NCBI GenBank assembly: GCA_025929075.1
Contig: JAICMS010000006.1
Coordinates: forward strand, 26,500-50,499
Source: Propionibacteriales bacterium
Lineage (GTDB): Bacteria > Actinomycetota > Actinomycetes > Propionibacteriales > Nocardioidaceae
Length of the DNA stretch: 24,000 nucleotides
Reading direction: 5' to 3'
Of this stretch, positions 2,876-24,000 are shown one piece after another. The position numbers and the translations under genes were made by a program. Every line of letters starts with the position of its first letter. The stretch's first letter is position 1. The notes below the pieces were generated by a model. The model did no database searches and had not been told where the DNA came from. It was given only the letters and a program-made list of their open reading frames with translations.

Positions 2876-2876
2876 C

Positions 2877-2910
2877 TGTCTAGTGTCGCGTGCTGTCTAG
2901 TGCCGCGTGC
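2877..2910. repeat. Tandem direct duplication, 2 x 17 bp (TGTCTAGTGTCGCGTGC / TGTCTAGTGCCGCGTGC)
   Basis: Read directly: 16/17 identical copies at 2877-2893 and 2894-2910. The second copy contains the stop codon (2897-2899) of the DUF2785-like gene. The first copy sits 2 nt from the ATG (2875) of the ThDP enzyme gene. Confidence 0.9.
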
Positions 2911-3790
2911 TAGGCCGGGTGTAGAGCCAGGGCGTGAAGCGCGGAATGGTCAGCAGTAGAGCCAGCAGGACGTCGGGCCGGCAGGCGGGCATCTCGACGA
3001 AGTCGCTGGGTGCGTCCTGAGGGGAGATGCCGATCGAGATGTGGGCGTACAACGCGCGGAGGAAGTTGGAGGTGTTGCGGGCGGCGAAGGTGGGCCCGGC
3101 CGGCTTCTGCAGGGGCGGCTGTCCGACCTCGGCCGCAGCCGCAAGCGTCTCGACCCAGTCCTCGAGCCACCCGGAGTCGAGCAGGTTGCGCTGCAGCACG
3201 GTGAGCACGGCGTAGGCCAGTCGGTCGTCCTCGCCGTCGACGAGGACGCGAGTGGCATTGGTCGTGAGGCGCTCGGCGACGACGTCCAGCAGGACGCCGA
3301 GCTGGTCCGCATCAAGATGACGCGAGCGCCCGAGCGCCGTCACCAAGTCGGCGCCGTGTGCCATCGTGTGCGCCCAGCCCTTGCCGTCCACCCAGCCGCG
3401 CAGGTCGCGTTCCCGGGTAAACCACTCGATCGCCCGCTCCGCCCACTTCAGGGCGACATCGATCGGCACCAGGTGGGCGGCGTTGTCGCGTTCGACGCAG
3501 CTGGCGAGCACCAGCGCGGAGAAGCTGCGCCGGAAGACCGCGTCACCCTCCAAGCTGCCGAGCTCCACCCTCAGCCCGTTGCATATCGCGTCGCCGAAAC
3601 TGACCAGCAGGGCGTCGTAGACACCATCGGCGATCCAAGCCGCGAGCACCGAGTACGCGACCTCGTCGCGCTCGACCGGGTCGGCGGAGCCGAGCATGGT
3701 GACCAGCTCGGCCGTGAGCTCGGGAAGTGGCCGGTCGTCCGGCACGGCCATCTCGGACTCAAGCACCCGTTGCCAGAACCCGCCGGCCAT
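2897..3790 (-). CDS. DUF2785-like helical-repeat protein (function unknown)
   Basis: 297-aa ORF with high GC3. Motifs LGSADPVERDEVAYSVLAAWI, FRRSFSALVLA and ERDLRGWV..KGWAHTMAHGADL match my memory of the DUF2785 family. Confidence 0.7.
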   Translation of the reverse strand: MAGGFWQRVLESEMAVPDDRPLPELTAELVTMLGSADPVERDEVAYSVLAAWIADGVYDALLVSFGDAICNGLRVELGSLEGDAVFRRSFSALVLASCVERDNAAHLVPIDVALKWAERAIEWFTRERDLRGWVDGKGWAHTMAHGADLVTALGRSRHLDADQLGVLLDVVAERLTTNATRVLVDGEDDRLAYAVLTVLQRNLLDSGWLEDWVETLAAAAEVGQPPLQKPAGPTFAARNTSNFLRALYAHISIGISPQDAPSDFVEMPACRPDVLLALLLTIPRFTPWLYTRPSTRH

Positions 3791-4555: not shown

Positions 4556-5134
4556 GTGACCGACCCAGCGCGCGCCGGCTCCAAGGCCGCCGGCAGCAAG
4601 AAGTCGGGCAACCGGCCGGGCCGGGCCGCCACCACCGCTGCGGTATCCCCCGGTGCCGCCTCGACAGCGCGGCCGACTGACCAGGCGACTGACCGGGCGA
4701 CTGACCGGGCGACGGGGGCTGCTGACGCCGCCCGCGTCGCGGGCCGGCTGCGGTTCGCCGCCGGCATCTGCCTCTTGGAAGCGCTCGCCGCGCTCGCGCT
4801 GGCAGGGGTGGAGCTGGCAAGCCTGGACTCCAAGCGGTTGAGTGCGGGCGTCACCACGGCGGTCTTCTTCGGCCTGTATGCCGCCGGGCTGGCGTGGTCA
4901 GCTCGGGGACTCGCCCGAGCGAGCAGCTGGAGCCGGGGCCCGATCGTGCTTGCGCAGCTGATTCAGCTGGGAGTCGCCTGGAGCTTCCATGGCGGCCTGT
5001 CGACCTGGATCACCGTGGCGCTGGCCGTCCCCGCGATCATCGTCCTGATCGTGGTCTTCTCACCCGACACGACGACTGCCCTCTACGGACAACGTGCTGC
5101 GGGCGGCGGCGAGACCGACAGGACACAAACCTGA
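4556..5134 (+). CDS. Integral membrane protein of unknown function with disordered basic N-terminus
   Basis: 192-aa ORF with a GTG start. The C-terminal ~130 aa contain about four hydrophobic segments (ICLLEALAALALAGV, VTTAVFFGLYAAGLAW, IVLAQLIQLGVAW, WITVALAVPAIIVLIVVF). The N-terminus is Ala/Arg/Thr-rich, so the start is uncertain. Confidence 0.6.
   Translation: MTDPARAGSKAAGSKKSGNRPGRAATTAAVSPGAASTARPTDQATDRATDRATGAADAARVAGRLRFAAGICLLEALAALALAGVELASLDSKRLSAGVTTAVFFGLYAAGLAWSARGLARASSWSRGPIVLAQLIQLGVAWSFHGGLSTWITVALAVPAIIVLIVVFSPDTTTALYGQRAAGGGETDRTQT
4674..4713 (+). repeat. In-frame 12-bp tandem repeat, about 3.3 copies (CGACTGACCRGG)
   Basis: Copies read directly at 4674-4685, 4686-4697 and 4698-4709, plus a partial copy. 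They encode TDQA-TDRA-TDRA-TG in the N-terminal tail of the membrane protein. Confidence 0.9.
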
Positions 5135-5189: not shown

Positions 5190-5591
5190 TCAGCCCTGCT
5201 GCGTCTCGGCGAAGATCTTGGCGATCTCGTCGATCTTGGCGAGTAGCTCGTCGGCTGCCGAGGCGTCCGTGCTGCCCTTGGTACCGGAGGCACCGGCAAG
5301 CTTGGTCGCCTCGTTGAACAGCGTGTGCAGCTGCGGGTACTTCTCGAAGTGCGGCGGCTTGAAGTAGTCGGTCCACAGCACCCACAGGTGGTGCTTGACG
5401 AGCTCGGAGCGCTGCTCCTTGATGATGATGGCGCGGGTCCGGAAGTCGGGGTCGTCGTTCTCGGCCATCTTGGAGATGATCTGCTTGATCGACTGCGCTT
5501 CGATCCGCGCCTGCGCCGGGTCGTACACGCCACACGGCAGGTCGCAGTGGGCGGACACTTCGATGGTGGGAGCAAAGAGTCGAGCAAGCAT
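5190..5591 (-). CDS. sodN: Nickel-containing superoxide dismutase precursor
   Basis: MLARLFAPTIEVSA|HCDLPCGVYDPAQARIEA... has the Ni-hook HCxxPCGxY immediately after a 14-aa propeptide and is colinear with Streptomyces SodN. I chose ATG 5591 (GAGAGAGGA SD 7 nt upstream). The track ORF begins 6 codons earlier at GTG 5609. Confidence 0.95.
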   Translation of the reverse strand: MLARLFAPTIEVSAHCDLPCGVYDPAQARIEAQSIKQIISKMAENDDPDFRTRAIIIKEQRSELVKHHLWVLWTDYFKPPHFEKYPQLHTLFNEATKLAGASGTKGSTDASAADELLAKIDEIAKIFAETQQG

Positions 5592-5616
5592 GAGGAAGTC
5601 CTCTCTCACGAGGTGA

Positions 5617-14005: not shown

Positions 14006-14210
14006 CGTCGGACTTCCCCCCTCCGTGGGATCGGTGCGTCGACGACGGGGTCGATAGTCAACGCCTGGTAACGATGCGCCTCCGATACCCCTTTTGCCGT
14101 AAATGTACGCGGTGCGAGGTTCACAAAAAACACGTCCGACCGTCCGATGGCGTTGGCGCCCCGGTCGAGGTAGCGCGGACGGTCGCTCGTCGTATGCGTT
14201 AGCCTGACCG

Positions 14211-14260
14211 CTGGCGATGGGACTCGCCCACAACCGCCCCTCCTGGCTGATGGTCCCTGG
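14211..14260 (+). promoter_or_regulatory. Fluoride riboswitch (crcB RNA motif)
   Basis: CUGGCGAUGGGACUCGCCCACAACCGCCCCUCCUGGCUGAUGGUCCCUGG aligns almost position for position with the Thermotoga petrophila fluoride riboswitch as I recall it (GGCGAUGAGGCCCGCCCAAACUGCCC...GGGCUGAUGGCCUCU). P1 is GGCG/CGCC, and the pseudoknot pairs GGGAC (14219-14223) with GUCCC (14253-14257). It is followed by crcB genes. A TAnnnT -10 candidate, TAGCCT, lies at 14200-14205. Confidence 0.85.
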
Positions 14261-14282
14261 TCGAGACCAAGCTGGAGTCTGG

Positions 14283-14831
14283 ATGCCCCTCGCCACGGCG
14301 CTTCGCCTGCTCGTCGTTCACCTACCCGTCGATCCCGACCTCGACGACCGGGTAACCCGGCCGCTCGACCGCCGAGTGGTCGTCGCCCTCATCGCGATCG
14401 GTGGTTCGGCAGGGTCTCTTTGTCGTGGGCTGGTGCAGTCGTCGATCGGCGGGCCGGTTACGTCGGGTGCCGAATGGCCCTGGGACACGCTGTCGGTCAA
14501 CCTGGTGGGCTCACTGCTGTTGGGATACCTGCTTGCGTGGCTTCATGAGGTCAGGCCGACAGCCCGGGTCCCGCGCCCGCTGCTGGGGACCGGCTTCTGT
14601 GGCGGCTTCACGACGTTCTCGACCTTCGCAGTGGAGGTGACGGTCGCGGGCCGATCACAGCACGTGGCGGTGGCCGTGCCCTATCTCGTCGCCTCAGTGC
14701 TGGGATCTGTTCTGGCCGCCGCCGTCGGGGTGCTTTTTGCAAGGGTCGTGGCTCGCGCCGGGAACCGCGAGCGCTGGCTGCGTCGCGTGCGCCATGCCGC
14801 CCGTGCGGGCAAAGGCGGTGACGACTCGTGA
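14283..14831 (+). CDS. crcB: Fluoride ion channel subunit CrcB/Fluc (paralogue 1, with N- and C-terminal extensions)
   Basis: Has the GFCGGFTTFSTF signature and four hydrophobic segments. I chose ATG 14283 (GGAG 5 nt upstream, 22 nt after the riboswitch). The track start ATG 14217 lies inside riboswitch stem P1 and is rejected. A later GTG start before VVVALIAIGG is possible. Confidence 0.85.
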   Translation: MPLATALRLLVVHLPVDPDLDDRVTRPLDRRVVVALIAIGGSAGSLCRGLVQSSIGGPVTSGAEWPWDTLSVNLVGSLLLGYLLAWLHEVRPTARVPRPLLGTGFCGGFTTFSTFAVEVTVAGRSQHVAVAVPYLVASVLGSVLAAAVGVLFARVVARAGNRERWLRRVRHAARAGKGGDDS

Positions 14832-15181
14832 CCTGGCTCTTGATTGCGGTCGGCGGGCTGGTTGGTGCGCCAAGCCGCTATCTGCTCGACACAGCTGTCT
14901 CGTCGCAGCTGCACCGGTCGGCCGTCCCGTGGGGGACGATGCTGGTCAACATCTGCGGCAGCTTTGTGCTTGGCGTCCTCGCCGGCGCCACCGTCGCCGA
15001 TGGTCGGGTCTTCGCGGTGGTGGGGACAGGCTTCTGCGGGGCTTTCACCACCTTCTCGACGTTCGCTTGGGAGGCTTTCGCCCTTGCCGAGGACGGACGG
15101 CCTCGAGCGGCTCTCGTCACCGTGGCGCTCGGGCTGGTGCTCGGTCTCGCTGCGGCGGCCGCCGGCTACGCGTTGGCCTGA
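14828..15181 (+). CDS. crcB: Fluoride ion channel subunit CrcB/Fluc (paralogue 2)
   Basis: 117 aa with MTWLLIAVGGLVGAPSRYLL, GFCGAFTTFSTF and four TM segments. The GTG start overlaps the TGA of paralogue 1 (GTGA), consistent with a heterodimeric channel pair. Confidence 0.9.
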   Translation: MTWLLIAVGGLVGAPSRYLLDTAVSSQLHRSAVPWGTMLVNICGSFVLGVLAGATVADGRVFAVVGTGFCGAFTTFSTFAWEAFALAEDGRPRAALVTVALGLVLGLAAAAAGYALA

Positions 15182-18817: not shown

Positions 18818-19837
18818 TCAGAACGGCGTGACGCGGAGCACGCGGTTGGTGTATTGGAAGTTGTTGGTCCACAGGCTGTCGCCGAGCCCGATCACGTCGA
18901 AGGCGTCCGACCCGACCGGTTGGGTGGCGACGACGTCGCCGGTCATCAAGTCGCGCTTCACGAGGCTGCCGCCGCGGCATGCATACGTGCGCGGGTGGAA
19001 GGCGTCCTGCGCGGTGTACAGGACTCCGTCGAAGACCGCAGCACCGAGCAGGCAGTCGTCGACGGTGAAGCTGGCGGCGATGGAGTGTGAGGTCAGGTCG
19101 TAGCGGCTCACGGTGTTGCTGCAGTCGCTGTCGTCGAGCCAGAAGCCGTCCGGGGCTTCCAGGATCCGGCCGCACGCGGCCGCCGGTGCGACGTTCTCAG
19201 TTTGGACCACCGTGTTGGTCGCTGGGTCGATGCGGACCACCTGATCGGAGTCCGGCACGGTTGCCCAGACCGAGTCGCCGATGATCGCCAGTCGATTCGG
19301 TCCGCCGAAGAAGTGCTGAGGATCCCCGACCGAGATCGTGGCCATCACTTTGTTGGTGGCGGGGTCGATTCGGGAGACGGTGGCCGCGGTGAGATTCGCG
19401 ACGAAGACGGAGCCGAAGCCGGCGACGACGTCCGACGGCGTGCGTCCGGCGGGGATCTTCGCGACGAGTTGAGCCGTTGCGGCGTCCACTCGGTCGACGC
19501 GGTTGCGATAGTAGTCGGAAACCCAAATGCTGCCGCTCCCCGCGGCTATCGATCCGGGCAGGATGTCATCACCGCTGACCTGTCCGCCACCCAGCCGTAC
19601 CACGGCCGTCACCTGGTTTGTGGTGGGGTCGATGCGTGACAAGTAGCTGCGCGAACCCTGGCTCAGGGCCCAGATGCTCCCGTATCCCGCACCCTCGTAG
19701 GCGGGGCCCGGCTTCACGGGTATCACAGCCTCCACGTCCGTGGGGCGCGAGAACTGTTGGCCGGCAGCGGTGGCCGGCAACGCAAGGGCGAGGAGCGCGG
19801 CAATGGCGAGCGGTACGGCCCAACGGCCTCGGCTCAT
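18818..19837 (-). CDS. Secreted 7-repeat beta-propeller protein, paralogue B
   Basis: In frame in track ORF 18818..20230. I chose ATG 19837 because it gives a signal peptide (MSRGRWAVPLAIAALLALALPATAAG). The upstream 131 codons run antisense across the intergenic region and the regulator start. It has the same repeat pattern as paralogue A (GSVFVANLTAATVSRIDPATNKV). Confidence 0.8.
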   Translation of the reverse strand: MSRGRWAVPLAIAALLALALPATAAGQQFSRPTDVEAVIPVKPGPAYEGAGYGSIWALSQGSRSYLSRIDPTTNQVTAVVRLGGGQVSGDDILPGSIAAGSGSIWVSDYYRNRVDRVDAATAQLVAKIPAGRTPSDVVAGFGSVFVANLTAATVSRIDPATNKVMATISVGDPQHFFGGPNRLAIIGDSVWATVPDSDQVVRIDPATNTVVQTENVAPAAACGRILEAPDGFWLDDSDCSNTVSRYDLTSHSIAASFTVDDCLLGAAVFDGVLYTAQDAFHPRTYACRGGSLVKRDLMTGDVVATQPVGSDAFDVIGLGDSLWTNNFQYTNRVLRVTPF

Positions 19838-19916
19838 TCTCCACTGAGGGTCATCTTTCACGGATGTCGCCTTCCTGACGGCAGCTGTCGGTGTTAGCCC
19901 ACAGCCTCGATGCGGC

Positions 19917-19937
19917 CGGTGGAAGTTCGGTGGAAGT
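19917..19937. promoter_or_regulatory. Two 10-bp direct repeats CGGTGGAAGT with 11-bp phasing in the divergent intergenic region (candidate SARP-binding site)
   Basis: Exact copies read directly at 19917-19926 and 19928-19937. On the minus strand the repeats end 8 nt before a -10-like GAGGCT (19908-19903), about 65 nt upstream of the propeller-B ATG. Confidence 0.4.
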
Positions 19938-20014
19938 GCCCGCGCATCCCGCTTGACCAGCCATGATGCGGCGGAACGGCTGCCGTGGGAGGGGAGGTCG
20001 TCTAACGTTCGAGC

Positions 20015-23000
20015 ATGTGGTTCGGCGTGCTGGGGGCGCTGGCCGCACGCCAAGACGACGGGGGGCACGTGTCCATCCCCGGCCCTGCGCGCCGGCTGCT
20101 CTTGGCGGCGCTGATCTCTCGGGTCGGAGAGACCGTAACGCCGTCGGTTCTGGTCGAAGACCTGTGGGGTGACACGCCTCCGGCGACCGCCGGCAAGACC
20201 TTGCACAGTCATGTGCGCCGTCTCCGTCATGACCTGTCGGGTTCCAGCGACGACCGCGATTGGATCGTCACCGAACCCGGGGGCTACCGGCTAGACCTGG
20301 CTGCCGAGTCGATCGATGCCGGCTGCTTCGAGGCGGCCCTCACCGCCGGACTCGCGGCTCTGGGCAGCGGCGACGCCAAGGAGGCGCTGCCCCGCCTGGA
20401 TGCGGCTCTGGGCTGGTGGCGCGGCGTGCCGTACGCCGAGTTTCCTGACGCTGAGTTCGCCATCAGGGAGCGGCTTCACCTGACCGAACGGCACGCACTC
20501 GCGCACGAAGCGCGAATAGACGCCGCCCTCCTCCTGGGTCAGGGCGCGTCGCTGGTCGCCGACCTTGAGGCCCAGTTACTTCTCGACCCATATCGGGAGC
20601 GGTCCTGGGAGCAACTCATGATCGCGTTGTGGCGGGCCGGTCGCCAAAGCGACGCGCTGGCCGCGTTCCAGCGTGGGCGCAGGACGCTGGTAGACGACCT
20701 CGGCATCGAACCTGGCCCCGGTCTCCGCGCGCTCGAGGAGCGCATTCTTTCCCACGATGAGTCACTGCTAATACCGGCGACGTACCGGACCGAGAGGATC
20801 GAGGCTCCGGTCAGCCGCGCTGGCCCGGTCTGCCCGTATCAAGGGCTTGCAGCCTACGACGAGCAGGACGCAGGCCTCTTCGTCGCTCGCGAACACGCGG
20901 TCGCACGTCTCGTCGGCCTCGTCGATGGCGGTGGCGTTGTCGTCGTGACCGGGCCTAGCGGCGTCGGAAAGTCGTCACTCGTGCGGGCCGGCCTGATACC
21001 CGCCCTGCGCAGCGGCGCCTTGCCCGGGTCCAGCAACTGGCGGTGCGCGGTGGCGAATGCCGGAGACCTCGCGAACCTTTCGCCGCCGAAAGTTGATGTC
21101 CTGGTGGTCGACCAGGCCGAGGAGATCTTCACGGTGCCCCCGGAACGCGAAGGCAGACGCGTCCGCCAAGGCGTGCTCGCCGGCATGTCCGCGTCAACGG
21201 TCATCATGGTGGTGCGTGCAGACAGGTACGTCGACCTCGCGGCGATGCCGGAGGTTTCGCACCGGCTCCTGTCCGCGCCGCTGGTGGTGGGGTCCCTGAC
21301 GGAGACGGAGCTGGCCCGCGTGGTCACCGAGCCGGCTCGTCGTCTAGGCCTGGACTACGAGCCCGAGCTGGTCGACGAGATTCTGGCCGACGTCCGCGGG
21401 CAACCTGAGGCCCTTCCGATGCTGTCTCAAGCGCTGCTGCGGACCTGGGCCAATCGGCACGGCCGATGGCTCACCGTCGAGGGATACCGGGCGGGCGGTG
21501 GGGTGAGCGGTGCCCTCGAAGCGGCGGCCGAAGAGGTCTACCTGGATCTCGATGAACAGACCCGCGACGACGTTCGTCGACTCCTGCTCAGAATGGCCAC
21601 GTTCGACGCGGGCATGTGGTCGCGCCGGCCCGTGCTCACCGAACAGCTCGGCTCCCTCGGCATCCACCGGCTCGACGAGACGGTCACCCTGCTCGCCGAC
21701 CGCCGCCTCGTGACGGTCACGGAGAAACGCGTCGAGCTGATCCACGAGGCGCTCCTCACCCGTTGGCCGCGGCTGCGCTCGTGGCTCGATGCAAGGGCCG
21801 CTATGGCACCGGCAGCCGAGCGCCTCGCTGACGCGTCGCGGGCCTGGGCGGACACCGATCGGCCCGAAAGCGATCTTTATCGGGGACTGCGCCTGCAGGA
21901 GGCGCTTGCTTGGCAGGCCTCCGGTGGTGCCGACCTGAGTCCGGTCGAAACCGAGTTTCTAGCGGCTTCCCGAGCCGCGTCCGATGAGGAGATTCGTCGC
22001 GCCGAAGCGCAGGTTGTTGCGGATGCGCGCAGTAGGCGTCGCCTGCGCAATGCCGTCGCAGGGCTGACCGCGTTCGCCGTTCTCGCCCTCACCGGATTGG
22101 GGGTCGCCCTCCACGAGCGCGCGGTGGCTCAACAGGATGCGCTGGTCTCGGAGGCGAGCGCCCTCGCTTCCCTGTCCCACACGGTGCCCGACGTGCGAAC
22201 CTCGCTGCTGCTGGCGGTCGCCGGATACCGGCTAAACGACGACGCCGATACCCGCTCTGCACTGCTGTCCGCGGTGGAAAGCGCGAGCTCCATCCGCTGG
22301 AGAATCCCCACCCCGGTCGGCCCGGACGACCTGGTGGCGAACACCAACGGGCACCTGTGGCTGACCCACCAGTCGGCGGGTATCAACGAGTATGACGCAG
22401 GGAGCAGACGACTGGTCGCCGAGTTGCCGAGCGTGGCCCCGACTCTGGACGCTGTCTCTCCGGATGGTCGCACCCTCGTGGTGTCCGGACCGGCTTCCTT
22501 CCCCGCGACCACCACGACCGGCCGTGTCGACATACTGAACGCCCACACCGGAGCAGTCATCACCGAGCTGCACATCCACGGCACGCAGCGTCGAGTCGGC
22601 ACGTGGTCGTCAGCGGCGTTCACCGGCGACGGCCGCTGGCTCGCCGTGATCGTCGGACGGCCCAGCCACGATCTGCTCGGGGGCGCCCTGCAGCCGAGCC
22701 GCACTGTGGCCGTGTTCGACACCAGCGACTACTCCCGCCCCCCACACGTGCTGCGTGTCGATGCGCCCATCACGCAACTCGCCGCGGGCACGAGTGCTCT
22801 CGCGATCGGGACGGCGACGGGGCACCTCGTGGAGTTCACCCTGCGCGACGACGCGGCGGGTTTCCGCGCGATCTCCTCACGCGTCGCGGAGCACAGTTCG
22901 GGACGGGGGCCTTTCTCATTGTCGCCCGACGGCCGGTACATCGCGACGACTGCTCCAGGTCGCCCGCGGCTCGTCCGTGTGATATCGGCTTCGCCGCCGA

Positions 23001-24000
23001 ACCGAGTCGCCGACTCCTTCGCCTTGTCTGCGAAAGTCACTGACGTCGCCTTCTCCCCTGGCGGCGATAGGGTCGCCGCCGTCGCGCCGGGCGTGAAGCT
23101 CGCCATCGACGCCGTTCCCACCGGCACCGTTGAGCGGCTTGCGATACCGAGCCGACCGGGCGATCACGAGACTCTGGCCTGGTCGGGCACTCCGACCCAC
23201 CCTGCGCTCTACTTAACCGACCCGGCAAATGAGATCGTGTCCATCAACCTGGACGACACTGCGGTTGTCGTGCACCGTTCCAGAGTCGCGGCCCCACAGG
23301 GGGAGGTCTCCTTCATGGCCGGGTCGCACGTGATCACCGTGACCACCCTCGGCGAACCGGGTCTCGCCCCACCGCGGCTGATCGAGTCGGACCCGCTGAC
23401 CCGCACATCGACGTCGTACCCGATTGCCATCCCGAAGCGTGACGTCATAGCCGCGCTGACCGTGGATCGCTCAGTCGACCGTGTGCTTCTGCAGTACGTC
23501 GGGCCAAACTCGGTCATTCACTCTGCGGTTCTTAGCCTGCCGAGCGACAGAGTCGTGTCACGGTTTCTCGCGACTCCGCGCCCGAGCGCCCACTATTCAT
23601 ACACCGGCGTGATCTCCGAGGACGGCACGCAGGCCGTGTGCGCCGTCGGAGACCACCGGATAGCAGTCATTTCTCTACCGTCCGGTCGAGTGGTGCGCTC
23701 ATTCGACATCCATTTCAGCGGACCGGCGGGCCTCCACACGCTCCCCATGCCCATGTTCTACGACCCGAACGGGGACGTGGTCGTCGCCGGGTACAACCCC
23801 ACGCCGCCCGCCTCGAGCCATGGCGGTCCGTCGGCGGATCGCACGGCTCCGCCGCCGGTGCAGAGCCTGGGACTCGTCGACCCACGCACCGGGAGACTGG
23901 TCGGCCAAACTCATCTGGGCGTCCAGGGCGTCGTGAGCGCCGCCGCGTGGTCCCCCGACGGGCAGCGTGTTGTGGTCGGTACATGGGCCGGAAACCTCAG
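20015..24000 (+). CDS. Large SARP-family regulator, 3'-partial: OmpR-type wHTH + BTAD, P-loop STAND NTPase, hydrophobic helix, WD40-like beta-propeller
   Basis: Hand translation shows one uninterrupted frame from ATG 20015 (in-frame TAA at 20003-20005) to the window end, 1328 codons. It is not in the ORF track. The N-terminus is MWFGVLGALAARQDDG...LWGDTPPATAGKTLHSHVRRLRHDL (SARP wHTH), followed by a BTAD helical region. Next come CPYQGLAAYDEQDAGLFVARE, Walker A GPSGVGKS (20951-20974) and Walker B VLVVDQAEE (21098-21124). A hydrophobic stretch AVAGLTAFAVLALTGLGVAL (22052-22114) follows, then repeats containing SPDGRTLVV, FTGDGRWLAV, LSPDGRYIAT, FSPGGDRVAAV and WSPDGQRVVVG. Confidence 0.9.
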   Translation, partial: MWFGVLGALAARQDDGGHVSIPGPARRLLLAALISRVGETVTPSVLVEDLWGDTPPATAGKTLHSHVRRLRHDLSGSSDDRDWIVTEPGGYRLDLAAESIDAGCFEAALTAGLAALGSGDAKEALPRLDAALGWWRGVPYAEFPDAEFAIRERLHLTERHALAHEARIDAALLLGQGASLVADLEAQLLLDPYRERSWEQLMIALWRAGRQSDALAAFQRGRRTLVDDLGIEPGPGLRALEERILSHDESLLIPATYRTERIEAPVSRAGPVCPYQGLAAYDEQDAGLFVAREHAVARLVGLVDGGGVVVVTGPSGVGKSSLVRAGLIPALRSGALPGSSNWRCAVANAGDLANLSPPKVDVLVVDQAEEIFTVPPEREGRRVRQGVLAGMSASTVIMVVRADRYVDLAAMPEVSHRLLSAPLVVGSLTETELARVVTEPARRLGLDYEPELVDEILADVRGQPEALPMLSQALLRTWANRHGRWLTVEGYRAGGGVSGALEAAAEEVYLDLDEQTRDDVRRLLLRMATFDAGMWSRRPVLTEQLGSLGIHRLDETVTLLADRRLVTVTEKRVELIHEALLTRWPRLRSWLDARAAMAPAAERLADASRAWADTDRPESDLYRGLRLQEALAWQASGGADLSPVETEFLAASRAASDEEIRRAEAQVVADARSRRRLRNAVAGLTAFAVLALTGLGVALHERAVAQQDALVSEASALASLSHTVPDVRTSLLLAVAGYRLNDDADTRSALLSAVESASSIRWRIPTPVGPDDLVANTNGHLWLTHQSAGINEYDAGSRRLVAELPSVAPTLDAVSPDGRTLVVSGPASFPATTTTGRVDILNAHTGAVITELHIHGTQRRVGTWSSAAFTGDGRWLAVIVGRPSHDLLGGALQPSRTVAVFDTSDYSRPPHVLRVDAPITQLAAGTSALAIGTATGHLVEFTLRDDAAGFRAISSRVAEHSSGRGPFSLSPDGRYIATTAPGRPRLVRVISASPPNRVADSFALSAKVTDVAFSPGGDRVAAVAPGVKLAIDAVPTGTVERLAIPSRPGDHETLAWSGTPTHPALYLTDPANEIVSINLDDTAVVVHRSRVAAPQGEVSFMAGSHVITVTTLGEPGLAPPRLIESDPLTRTSTSYPIAIPKRDVIAALTVDRSVDRVLLQYVGPNSVIHSAVLSLPSDRVVSRFLATPRPSAHYSYTGVISEDGTQAVCAVGDHRIAVISLPSGRVVRSFDIHFSGPAGLHTLPMPMFYDPNGDVVVAGYNPTPPASSHGGPSADRTAPPPVQSLGLVDPRTGRLVGQTHLGVQGVVSAAAWSPDGQRVVVGTWAGNL

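What the first reader, a model, noticed from the sequence alone, without database searches (positions are those of the whole stretch)
20015..24000. Largest gene in the window is invisible in the supplied ORF track; SARP head fused to a conflict-system-type STAND NTPase
Reading the + strand by hand gives 1328 sense codons from ATG 20015 with no stop before the window edge, while the track lists only short antisense ORFs here. After the BTAD domain, the CPYxGLxxYxExDAxxFxxRE / GPSGxGKSSL / hhhhDQxEE module followed by WD40 repeats is the NTPase type widely found with effector N-termini in NTP-dependent bacterial conflict and signalling proteins. Here a transcription-activation module occupies the effector position. 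That implies ligand-triggered NTPase oligomerisation coupled directly to promoter activation.
Basis: partly seen in the sequence, partly recalled or inferred. Interest (0 to 1): 0.7.

Follow-up and report, generated by a model that had tools for sequence, protein, structure and literature searches.

The report
Membrane-anchored SARP–STAND transcription activator gene
The open frame is a real gene for a large actinobacterial transcription activator whose DNA-binding head and ATP-switch module are followed by a conserved membrane-spanning helix and an apparently extracellular double β-propeller, and which probably switches on neighbouring genes for secreted propeller proteins through a conserved tandem DNA box.

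Summary
Window 20015-24000 (+) is a 1328-codon stop-free coding frame. The ORF list omits it only because it runs off the window end. The full protein is 1370 aa, or 1465 aa if a frameshift just past the window is repaired. Its domains are an OmpR-type wHTH, BTAD, nSTAND1 NTPase (Pfam E 3.8e-87; Walker A/B invariant) and a tandem WD40-type propeller.

The nearest non-SARP relatives of the NTPase do carry TIR, caspase, kinase or cyclase heads. It is present in 217 of 255 relatives, and the positive-inside rule holds in 213 of 217. The sensor is therefore probably outside the cell.

I also found a candidate operator: a tandem CTKCMACCG repeat with 11-bp period, 8 nt from a −10-like hexamer, which is the canonical SARP geometry. 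It lies at 19917-19937, pointing at two divergent secreted DUF6923 propeller genes, and recurs in 5 of 6 independent homologous loci.

This is a new variant of a known kind (AfsR-like logic with ToxR-like topology). It is uncharacterised experimentally.

The parts
20015..24000 (+). Partial CDS (aa 1-1328 of 1370/1465) of the SARP-nSTAND1-TM-double-propeller regulator
   Evidence: Stop-free frame with coding GC3; near-identical (reported as 100%) to P0001; full gene seen in L011
20093..20293 (+). OmpR-type winged-helix DNA-binding domain (Trans_reg_C, aa 27-93); recognition-helix residues L63, S65, H66, R69, L70, R71 invariant or nearly so
   Evidence: Pfam 5.4e-9; alignment A2; AfsR/EmbR fold match, TM 0.90, rmsd 2.2
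20312..20749 (+). BTAD (bacterial transcriptional activation domain, aa 100-245)
   Evidence: Pfam 2.9e-37, full profile
20834..21868 (+). nSTAND1 NTPase module (aa 274-618): CPYxGL motif, P-loop domain, helical domain, winged helix
   Evidence: PF20703 E 3.8e-87, profile 1-378/379; AF2 pLDDT ~90; 38,615 relatives at E<=1e-3
20951..20977 (+). Walker A (GPSGVGKSS, aa 313-321)
   Evidence: G313, S315, G316, G318, K319, S320, S321 invariant in 60 homologues
21098..21124 (+). Walker B (VLVVDQAEE, aa 362-370)
   Evidence: D366, Q367, E369 invariant
21941..22171 (+). Single long stalk helix (aa 643-719) running from the NTPase module through the membrane segment
   Evidence: AF2 model helix H643-719
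22052..22111 (+). Predicted transmembrane helix (aa 680-699, AVAGLTAFAVLALTGLGVAL) preceded by RSRRRLR
   Evidence: KD 2.15; equivalent segment in 217/255 relatives; K+R N-flank 6.5 vs C-flank 2.9, N>C in 213/217; the only strong hydrophobic window in 196/217
22292..24000 (+). Tandem WD40-type beta-propellers (about 13 blades visible; continues beyond the window), inferred to be extracytoplasmic
   Evidence: AF2 pLDDT 83, ~52 strands; Foldseek matches to double-propeller proteins and Apaf-1, E 1e-19 to 1e-15
19917..19937 (-). Candidate SARP box: two exact 10-nt direct repeats, 11-bp period (minus strand ACTTCCACCG a ACTTCCACCG), oriented toward the propeller operon
   Evidence: Only such repeat in the window, 0.04 expected per 24 kb; same motif near homologous regulators, 8 hits vs 0.09 expected; further independent loci L139, L140
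19903..19908 (-). -10-like hexamer GAGGCT, 8 nt downstream of the 3' repeat
   Evidence: T at offset 14 in 11/11 boxes, A at offset 10 in 7/11; the 8-bp spacing is the canonical SARP geometry (PMC10936776)
18818..19837 (-). Probable target gene 1: secreted DUF6923 / YVTN-like beta-propeller protein (339 aa, signal-peptide-like N-terminus)
   Evidence: Pfam DUF6923 7.7e-9; orthologues beside homologous regulators in L016, L017 (5e-49, 3e-48); DUF6923 pair also annotated in L139
17767..18801 (-). Probable target gene 2: paralogous secreted DUF6923 / YVTN-like propeller (344 aa), 16 nt after gene 1
   Evidence: Pfam 1e-9; orthologues in L017, L016 (7e-81, 2e-77); matches the YVTN propeller of surface-layer protein 1l0q at 1e-13

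Best explanation
The gene encodes a single-pass membrane protein that works as a one-protein signalling pathway from the cell exterior to a promoter. The N-terminal SARP head (wHTH + BTAD) and the nSTAND1 NTPase sit in the cytoplasm. A long stalk helix crosses the membrane once. A tandem WD40-type double propeller is displayed outside the cell. A ligand in the cell envelope or medium is sensed by the propellers (inferred). The signal passes along the stalk helix to the NTPase, which switches nucleotide state and brings two molecules side by side (inferred by analogy with AfsR, MalT and Apaf-1). Two SARP heads then bind the two 11-bp-spaced CTKCMACCG repeats that occupy the -35 position, 8 nt upstream of a -10-like hexamer, and recruit RNA polymerase. 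In this window that would activate the divergent operon of two secreted DUF6923/YVTN-type propeller proteins. Shown here: domain identities, conservation of the hydrophobic helix and its charge asymmetry, the double-propeller fold, the conserved gene pair, and the conserved box with canonical SARP geometry. Inferred: membrane insertion and orientation, the ligand, NTP-dependent switching, DNA binding at the membrane, and activation of the operon.
For: Domains: Trans_reg_C, BTAD, nSTAND1 3.8e-87; EmbR/AfsR; double propeller; cytoplasmic half, pLDDT 89.7. Catalytic residues invariant. TM helix: most hydrophobic window at the same architectural position in ~115/120 homologues with non-conserved sequence; present in 131/150 nearest NTPase representatives whatever the head; core median 21 aa, K+R 6.5 vs 2.9, N>C in 213/217, unique in 196/217; AF2 shows one helix 643-719 and low confidence at the segment. 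A DNA-binding domain and an NTPase must be cytoplasmic, so with a single span the propellers must be outside. Operator: exact 10-nt repeat at 11-bp period, unique in the window; the same motif occurs 8 times in 127 kb x2 strands of regulator loci vs 0.09 expected, always intergenic, co-oriented and 44-89 nt upstream of a gene adjacent to the regulator; 5/6 loci not used to derive the motif carry it; invariant T and frequent A define a -10-like hexamer 8 nt downstream, matching the published SARP rule. Targets: the DUF6923 paralogue pair is conserved next to regulators only 38-40% identical (also annotated in L139), all with signal-peptide-like N-termini; secreted targets fit an extracytoplasmic sensor. 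AfsR precedent for autoinhibition by C-terminal domains and ATP activation.
Against: No experiment exists for any member. The TM prediction rests on hydropathy and charge statistics, not a dedicated predictor. This protein's own segment is at the weak end (KD 2.15, rich in Ala/Gly/Thr). WD40-type propellers are classically cytosolic. A pattern-only scan of metagenomes found SARP genes beside only 2 of 120 matches, so the box alone is not diagnostic. Four of the 12 regulator loci examined lack propeller neighbours (L014, L018, and the P0009 and P0005 loci) and a fifth, L140, has a DUF2092 gene instead. L018 lacks the box. No sigma-70 consensus promoter is detected. How a membrane-tethered STAND would oligomerise and reach DNA is unknown. 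In AfsR, ATP did not change the oligomeric state. In the sister assembly the gene is frameshifted near its 3' end, so this allele may be impaired.
Confidence: 0.6

Rival explanations
1. One reading: a soluble cytosolic STAND transcription factor. The WD40 propellers bind an intracellular ligand, the NTPase oligomerises as in Apaf-1 or Avs, and the SARP heads activate promoters. The hydrophobic segment is a buried or dimerising helix, not a membrane span.
For: Characterised STAND regulators and NLRs (AfsR, MalT, GutR, Apaf-1) are treated as intracellular, soluble proteins. Apaf-1 appears among the fold matches of the propeller region. The window protein's hydrophobic segment is relatively weak (KD 2.15).
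Against: A 19-25-residue uncharged segment with non-conserved sequence but conserved hydrophobicity (KD up to 3.2), and a strongly asymmetric Arg flank in 213/217 proteins, is typical of a signal-anchor and not of a core helix. AF2 does not pack it against any domain. The co-conserved neighbours are secreted proteins.
Confidence: 0.17
2. A latent membrane-tethered activator released by proteolysis. The TM helix only sequesters the SARP-NTPase part at the membrane. A signal sensed outside triggers cleavage near the membrane, and the soluble fragment then acts like a medium-size SARP.
For: Same topology evidence as the best explanation. Natural homologues of 783-1066 aa that lack propeller Pfam annotations exist (P0043, P0079, P0089, P0090, P0115), showing that shorter forms occur. 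Kaur et al. propose proteolytic release for related membrane-proximal conflict proteins.
Against: No protease gene is conserved in the neighbourhood. No cleavage motif was identified. ToxR- and CadC-type activators work without release.
Confidence: 0.13
3. A conflict or anti-phage system in which an nSTAND1 sensor detects an invader and the output is transcription of defence or suicide genes.
For: nSTAND1 was defined in predicted counter-invader systems. The nearest non-SARP relatives carry TIR and caspase heads. Defence and non-defence STAND clades are interspersed in the published phylogeny.
Against: The neighbourhood is core housekeeping (Kgd, Ni-SOD, CrcB, argS, rho, prfA). There is no PADLOC match beyond a P-loop-level hit. 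The conserved partners are secreted propellers with no toxin features. An external sensor could not see intracellular phage proteins.
Confidence: 0.05
4. In this strain the gene is decaying. The frameshift just past the window removes the last blade and the conserved two-cysteine C-terminal motif, leaving a non-functional or crippled regulator.
For: Four cluster members are 1370 aa with the 95-aa remainder as a separate ORF, against one intact 1465-aa member. The junction is a 1-nt difference in a G run.
Against: Both pieces keep strong similarity to homologues (E down to 1e-30). Coding GC3 is intact in the window. Homopolymer indels are a common assembly error. The window itself ends before the site.
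Confidence: 0.1

Closest known systems
AfsR and other 'large SARPs' of Streptomyces (SARP + NB-ARC NOD + TPR)
   Same: N-terminal SARP head (37-38% identity over the structural alignment, TM 0.90 to AfsR in 8k60) followed by a STAND-class NTPase and a C-terminal repeat sensor. Target sites are two direct repeats at 11-bp period, 8 bp from the -10. The expected logic is autoinhibition relieved by nucleotide state.
   Different: The NTPase is nSTAND1, not NB-ARC (the AfsR NCBIfam model matches only residues 3-266, 158 bits against a cutoff of 1430). The sensor is a WD40-type double propeller, not TPR. A conserved TM helix separates NTPase and sensor. There is no biosynthetic cluster context. The architecture is absent from the published SARP classifications I read.
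ToxR / CadC-type membrane-bound one-component activators
   Same: Cytoplasmic N-terminal OmpR-type winged helix, a single TM helix and an extracytoplasmic sensor domain, so that DNA would be bound at the membrane.
   Different: Here a BTAD and a ~350-aa STAND NTPase plus a long stalk helix lie between the DNA-binding domain and the membrane, and the external domain is a ~700-aa double propeller. No sequence relationship beyond the wHTH was tested.
MalT / GutR (STAND transcription activators)
   Same: A P-loop STAND switch coupled to a DNA-binding domain, with activation through a repeat sensor and ATP.
   Different: Different DNA-binding domain (LuxR type, C-terminal in MalT), a different STAND clade, soluble proteins with intracellular small-molecule inducers.
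nSTAND1 conflict-system proteins (Kaur et al. 2021; DGR-diversified nSTAND1 sensors, PNAS 2024)
   Same: The same NTPase family (PF20703). The closest non-SARP relatives have TIR, caspase, kinase and cyclase heads and share the post-NTPase TM helix and propellers.
   Different: The head is a transcription activator rather than an enzyme. There is no defence-island context. A conserved operator and a secreted-propeller gene pair accompany it.
Apaf-1 (AP-ATPase + tandem WD40 propellers)
   Same: STAND NTPase followed by two WD40-type propellers that act as the ligand sensor; appears among the fold matches (3shf, 3j2t).
   Different: Apaf-1 is cytosolic with a CARD head. Here there is a TM helix and a DNA-binding head. 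The NTPase clades differ.

Membership tests
SARP family transcription activators | N-terminal OmpR-type winged-helix DNA-binding domain followed by BTAD | tested here: met
   Pfam Trans_reg_C 5.4e-9, BTAD 2.9e-37; EmbR 1.5e-43, AfsR 8e-32; fold TM 0.90 to the AfsR SARP domain
SARP family transcription activators | Target promoters with direct repeats 11 (or 22) bp apart, the 3' repeat 8 bp from the -10 element (PMC10936776) | tested here: met
   Candidate box at 19917-19937 with a -10-like hexamer 8 nt downstream; the same box and geometry in 10 other sites near homologous regulators. Actual binding was not tested.
STAND NTPases / nSTAND1 (PF20703) | P-loop NTPase with Walker A and Walker B (hhhhD/E) and a full-length family profile match | tested here: met
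   PF20703 E 3.8e-87 covering profile 1-378/379; GxSGxGKSS and DQxEE invariant in 60 homologues
STAND NTPases / nSTAND1 (PF20703) | NBD, helical domain and winged-helix domain followed by a repeat 'sensor' region | tested here: met
   AF2 model: alpha/beta P-loop domain, helical domain 430-526, winged helix 528-595; nearest solved folds are ORC/Cdc6, RuvB, RFC and Avs4; double propeller C-terminal
STAND NTPases / nSTAND1 (PF20703) | Nucleotide-dependent switching or oligomerisation | not testable with these tools
   Needs biochemistry; an invariant His577 in the winged-helix region is only a hint of an MHD-like sensor
AfsR-like 'large SARP' (SARP + NB-ARC + TPR) | Central NOD of the NB-ARC clade | tested here: not met
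   No NB-ARC Pfam hit; the NTPase is nSTAND1; the NCBIfam AfsR model aligns only to residues 3-266, 158 bits vs cutoff 1430; the AfsR sequence match stops at residue 322
AfsR-like 'large SARP' (SARP + NB-ARC + TPR) | C-terminal TPR sensor | tested here: not met
   The C-terminus is all-beta double propeller; no TPR Pfam hit
ToxR-like membrane-bound one-component regulators | Cytoplasmic wHTH, one TM helix, extracytoplasmic sensor domain | tested here: inconclusive
   wHTH is met. A single conserved hydrophobic span with positive-inside asymmetry is met in silico. Actual membrane insertion and orientation are not testable here.
Anti-phage STAND / Avs-type defence systems | Match to a known defence-system model, an enzymatic or toxic effector head, defence-island context | tested here: not met
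   PADLOC: only a 27-residue P-loop hit (mad3, 3.8e-4); the head is DNA-binding; the neighbours are housekeeping
WD40 repeat proteins | Four-stranded blades forming beta-propellers; WD40 sequence repeats | tested here: inconclusive
   The fold is clearly a tandem propeller (Foldseek E ~1e-19). In this protein the WD40/PD40 Pfam hits are all below gathering scores, although homologues score better.
EACC1 two-gene membrane-associated conflict system (Kaur et al. 2020) | 5' gene encoding the EACC1 single-TM domain preceding the large multidomain gene | tested here: not met
   No such gene in the window. The small single-TM genes preceding regulators in L014 and L015 have no significant Pfam match (one sub-threshold NrsF hit). 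It is a resemblance only.

The most novel reading that the evidence does not exclude
A whole subclade of bacterial NLR-like nSTAND1 proteins, with SARP, TIR, caspase, kinase or cyclase heads, are single-pass transmembrane receptors that display their WD40 double-propeller sensor outside the cell. They would combine the extracellular sensing of a Toll-like receptor with the cytoplasmic nucleotide switch of an NLR. The SARP-headed members would then be complete one-protein pathways from an extracellular cue to a defined promoter (the CTKCMACCG tandem box), controlling a conserved set of secreted propeller proteins.
Probability: 0.5. Interest if true: 0.78.

Novelty: new variant of a known kind. 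Interest (0 to 1): 0.62.

Why it matters
STAND/NLR proteins are treated as intracellular sensors, and the SARP classifications I read recognise only cytosolic forms (small, medium, NB-ARC+TPR, SARP-LAL). A large family of actinobacterial proteins already sits in the databases under domain-based names. It appears to put the STAND sensor on the other side of the membrane and to carry its own conserved operator and target genes. If the topology is confirmed, it gives a tractable system for asking how a STAND switch is driven across a membrane: a defined operator, defined targets, and a single protein. It would also extend to the TIR-, caspase- and kinase-headed relatives that share the same transmembrane layout. 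For annotation, it shows that window-edge ORFs are dropped by the ORF track, and that the hydrophobic helix is missed by domain-only annotation.

Tried and rejected
1. Finding the source genome in genome contigs failed. Only distant relatives were returned. The organism is known only as an Actinomycetota-like assembly, GCA_025928355.1.

2. A pattern-only scan of metagenomes for the box gave 120 loci. Only 2 had SARP genes nearby and none had DUF6923 genes. Many hits were low-GC, coding, or 11-bp minisatellites. I rejected this as a specificity test. Only L115 is kept, as one extra example.

3. A link to the EACC1 two-gene system has no model support.

4. The glyoxalase/Ble-like gene as part of the module is not supported. 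The window and L015 glyoxalases are not detectably homologous, and there is no box upstream.

5. The neighbouring propellers are not relatives of the regulator's own propeller region: no BLAST similarity.

6. The sigma-70 consensus scan of the intergenic region found nothing. The -10-like element came from comparative alignment instead.

7. No solved structure matches the NTPase or the C-terminus by sequence.

8. Distant NTPase-only relatives L001-L007 carry no box, so the box goes with the closer SARP-headed group only.

9. Literature searches for BTAD+WD40, SARP+WD40, DUF6923 and STAND+transmembrane+WD40 found no description of this architecture.

Full report
OBSERVATION. Translating window 20015-24000 on the + strand gives 1328 sense codons with no stop. 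The other five frames of that stretch contain 18-34 stops each. From base composition, the chance of such a run is about 2e-12. Codon-position GC (GC3 ~0.80, GC2 ~0.53) is coding-like in every 300-nt block. An in-frame TAA at 20003-20005 makes ATG 20015 the first possible start, and the N-terminus aligns with the start of homologues. The ORF tool states that it omits ORFs running off the source, which is why the frame is missing from the list. Small corrections are that two short + strand ORFs are also listed there, and that the antisense ORF 18818-20230 is an over-extension of a gene whose ATG is at 19837.

WHAT IT ENCODES. Pfam gives Trans_reg_C (aa 27-93, 5e-9), BTAD (100-245, 3e-37) and nSTAND1 PF20703 (274-618, E 3.8e-87, whole profile), plus sub-threshold propeller hits. 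NCBIfam's AfsR model matches only the head. By sequence, solved structures match only the head (EmbR, AfsR). An essentially identical protein is in the public collection (P0001, 1370 aa, reported as 100% identity), so the window lacks the last 42 residues. AlphaFold models built with homologue alignments are confident. The cytoplasmic half (pLDDT 89.7) shows the wHTH and BTAD, a disordered linker (258-269), a P-loop domain, a helical domain, a winged helix (528-595) and one 77-residue helix (643-719). The C-terminal half (pLDDT 83.4) is about 52 strands, or roughly 13 blades. It matches tandem WD40 double propellers including Apaf-1. Walker A, Walker B, R401, the CPYxGL motif and His577 are invariant in 60 homologues.

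HOW COMMON IS THE FUSION. More than 1,200 proteins match at E<=1e-10. All of the best 120 carry BTAD and nSTAND1, and nearly all also carry Trans_reg_C and propeller families. JGI names them 'DNA-binding SARP family transcriptional activator/WD40 repeat protein', and NCBI 'BTAD domain-containing putative transcriptional regulator' or 'nSTAND1 domain-containing NTPase'. The closest non-self homologue is only 46% identical. A search with the NTPase domain alone against 1.84 billion cluster representatives found 38,615 relatives. Of the nearest 150, 91 have a SARP head. The others carry TIR, caspase, Ser/Thr kinase, class III cyclase or an extra AAA_16/nSTAND5 module, as verified by Pfam on representatives.

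THE MISSED FEATURE: A TRANSMEMBRANE HELIX. Between NTPase and propellers lies RSRRRLRN-AVAGLTAFAVLALTGLGVAL-HERAV. In about 115 of 120 homologues the most hydrophobic 19-residue window falls at this same place, directly after a conserved RRRLR motif. Kyte-Doolittle means are 2.0-3.2, while the residues themselves vary freely. The segment is present in 131 of the 150 nearest NTPase relatives regardless of head type. Across 217 proteins the uncharged core has a median of 21 residues (range 19-25). K+R in the 15-residue N-flank averages 6.5 against 2.9 in the C-flank (N>C in 213 of 217). It is the only strong hydrophobic window in 196 of 217. AlphaFold does not pack it against any domain. A DNA-binding domain and an NTPase must be cytoplasmic, so a single span puts the propellers outside. 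I found no description of this in the nSTAND1 papers, the SARP review, the AfsR papers or the 2026 STAND phylogeny. Kaur et al. 2020 do note TM helices in some related conflict proteins.

CONTEXT AND TARGETS. The window is core actinobacterial housekeeping: fused Kgd, Ni-SOD, a CrcB pair, an ECF sigma factor and an MR/MLE enzyme. Downstream in the sister assembly lie argS, lysA, rho, rpmE and prfA. There is no biosynthetic cluster, no defence island and no PADLOC match. Divergent from the regulator are two paralogous genes (35% identity) for DUF6923 propeller proteins with signal-peptide-like N-termini. The second of them matches the YVTN propeller of an archaeal surface-layer protein. Each paralogue has its own orthologue next to homologous regulators in L016 and L017 (E 7e-81, 2e-77, 5e-49, 3e-48), and another DUF6923 pair follows the regulator in L139. 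Other loci have Vgb-lyase-like, NHL, PD40 or PQQ propellers. Four of the twelve loci examined have none, and L140 has a DUF2092 gene instead.

A CONSERVED OPERATOR. The 174-nt intergenic region holds an exact 10-nt direct repeat at 11-bp spacing (19917-19937). It is the only one in the window, with 0.04 expected per 24 kb. Read toward the propeller genes it is ACTTCCACCG twice. Related tandem repeats lie upstream of the propeller genes in L013, L016 and L017, giving the unit CTKCMACCG. A scan of the window plus seven homologous loci (127 kb, both strands) found 8 tandem sites against 0.09 expected. All are intergenic, co-oriented with a gene adjacent to the regulator, and 44-89 nt upstream of its start. 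They include three loci not used to derive the motif. Two further loci fetched afterwards also carry it: L139 perfectly, 54 nt before a DUF6923 pair, and L140 at 16/18. That makes 5 of 6 independent loci. In L014, L015 and L140 the box precedes a small gene immediately upstream of the regulator (a predicted single-TM protein in L014 and L015), suggesting autoregulation. Aligning the 11 sites, the base 14 nt after the box is T in 11 of 11 and the base at offset 10 is A in 7 of 11. This defines a -10-like hexamer (consensus CAGGCT) 8 nt after the 3' repeat. That is the published SARP promoter rule: repeats 11 or 22 bp apart, the 3' repeat 8 bp from the -10 (PMC10936776). The wHTH recognition-helix residues are invariant or nearly so across the family, consistent with a shared operator.

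A NEGATIVE RESULT. Scanning the metagenome collection with the bare pattern returned 120 loci. Only two had a SARP gene nearby: L115, a full SARP-nSTAND1 gene with the box 52 nt upstream in the window's divergent geometry, and L081 with a head only. None had DUF6923 genes, and many hits were low-GC, coding or minisatellite. The pattern is not diagnostic by itself, and the evidence for the box rests on the regulator-centred comparison.

MECHANISM. Best-supported model, confidence about 0.6 for the whole chain: an N-in/C-out single-pass protein senses something in the envelope with its double propeller, transmits through the stalk helix to the nSTAND1 switch, and places two SARP heads on the tandem box to recruit RNA polymerase to the secreted-propeller operon. 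The steps from ligand to nucleotide switching are by analogy with AfsR, MalT and Apaf-1. Rivals are a soluble cytosolic STAND (0.17), proteolytic release of the cytoplasmic part (0.13), a defence role (0.05), and a decaying allele (0.10).

BEYOND THE WINDOW. In the 99.9%-identical sister assembly (6 mismatches in 7,031 nt) the gene stops at 1370 aa. A 95-aa ORF overlapping the stop encodes the missing C-terminal ~89 residues of homologues, including a conserved two-cysteine motif (47-49% identity, E down to 1e-30). The 90% cluster contains four 1370-aa members, the 95-aa piece and one intact 1465-aa member. The difference is one G in a G run. Whether this is an assembly error or a real variant cannot be decided here.

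VERDICT. The gene is real, and its head-NTPase-propeller reading is correct. Its membership of the SARP and nSTAND1 families is met, while membership of the AfsR-like NB-ARC+TPR class is not. It is one member of a large, database-annotated but undescribed and uncharacterised family. The transmembrane topology, the conserved operator and the secreted-propeller partners are the new content. I rate it a new variant of a known kind, with interest 0.62.

Noticed in passing
window 14204-14266 (+): Fluoride riboswitch (Rfam RF01734, 37.6 bits, E 3e-7) directly upstream of two adjacent CrcB-like ORFs (14217-14831 confirmed as CrcB by Pfam; 14822-15178 called only from GC3). The ORF-track start at 14217 lies inside the riboswitch, so the real CrcB start must be further downstream (the Pfam match begins at residue 58).
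   Followed up: partly
L011 7100-7175 (about 110 nt beyond window end): A 1-nt difference in a G run splits the regulator gene into 1370-aa and 95-aa ORFs in four cluster members, while one member (P0259) is an intact 1465 aa. The detached piece carries the family's conserved C-terminal two-cysteine motif.
   Followed up: yes
proteins P0174, P0199, P0245, P0210, P0211, P0183 and others: TIR-, caspase-, kinase- and cyclase-headed nSTAND1 relatives share the same post-NTPase transmembrane helix and propeller region, so the predicted external-sensor topology is not specific to the SARP-headed proteins.
   Followed up: partly
L014 4434-4923; L015 4480-5004; L140 4361-4938; L115 1235-1254: In several homologous loci the tandem box precedes a small gene (126-158 aa; a predicted single-TM protein in L014 and L015, no significant Pfam match) lying immediately upstream of, or overlapping, the regulator gene. 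This suggests positive autoregulation and a possible membrane partner. The window has no such gene.
   Followed up: partly
L017 11550-13696: A second box in the same locus precedes a two-gene unit encoding a 391-aa secreted protein and a 294-aa protein with collagen triple-helix repeats (Pfam 2e-14). The putative regulon therefore extends beyond propeller proteins.
   Followed up: no
window 18818-20230 (-): The 470-aa ORF in the track is an over-extension. The real gene is 339 aa starting at ATG 19837 with a signal-peptide-like N-terminus. The spurious extension overlaps the regulator's start codon.
   Followed up: yes
window 4670-4713 (+): A 12-nt tandem repeat (CGGGCGACTGAC, 3.7 copies, 90% matches) inside an ORF with no Pfam match (4556-5134), next to the Ni-SOD gene (5190-5609, -).
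   Followed up: no
window 2876-2911: A 17-nt tandem repeat (CTGTCTAGTGCCGCGTG, 2.1 copies, 94%) spanning the short gap between the TPP-enzyme gene (1112-2875, -) and the DUF2785 gene (2897-3790, -) and extending into the 3' end of the latter.
   Followed up: no
window 19902-19916 and 19958-19972: A second direct repeat (CAGCCTCGATGCGGC / CAGCCATGATGCGGC, 56 nt apart) brackets the SARP box region. It also forms part of inverted repeats with neighbouring sequence. Its function is unknown.
   Followed up: no
L011 7685-8080: A stand-alone response-regulator receiver protein (131 aa, Pfam 5e-27) is encoded just downstream of the regulator in the sister assembly. No histidine kinase is seen nearby.
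   Followed up: no
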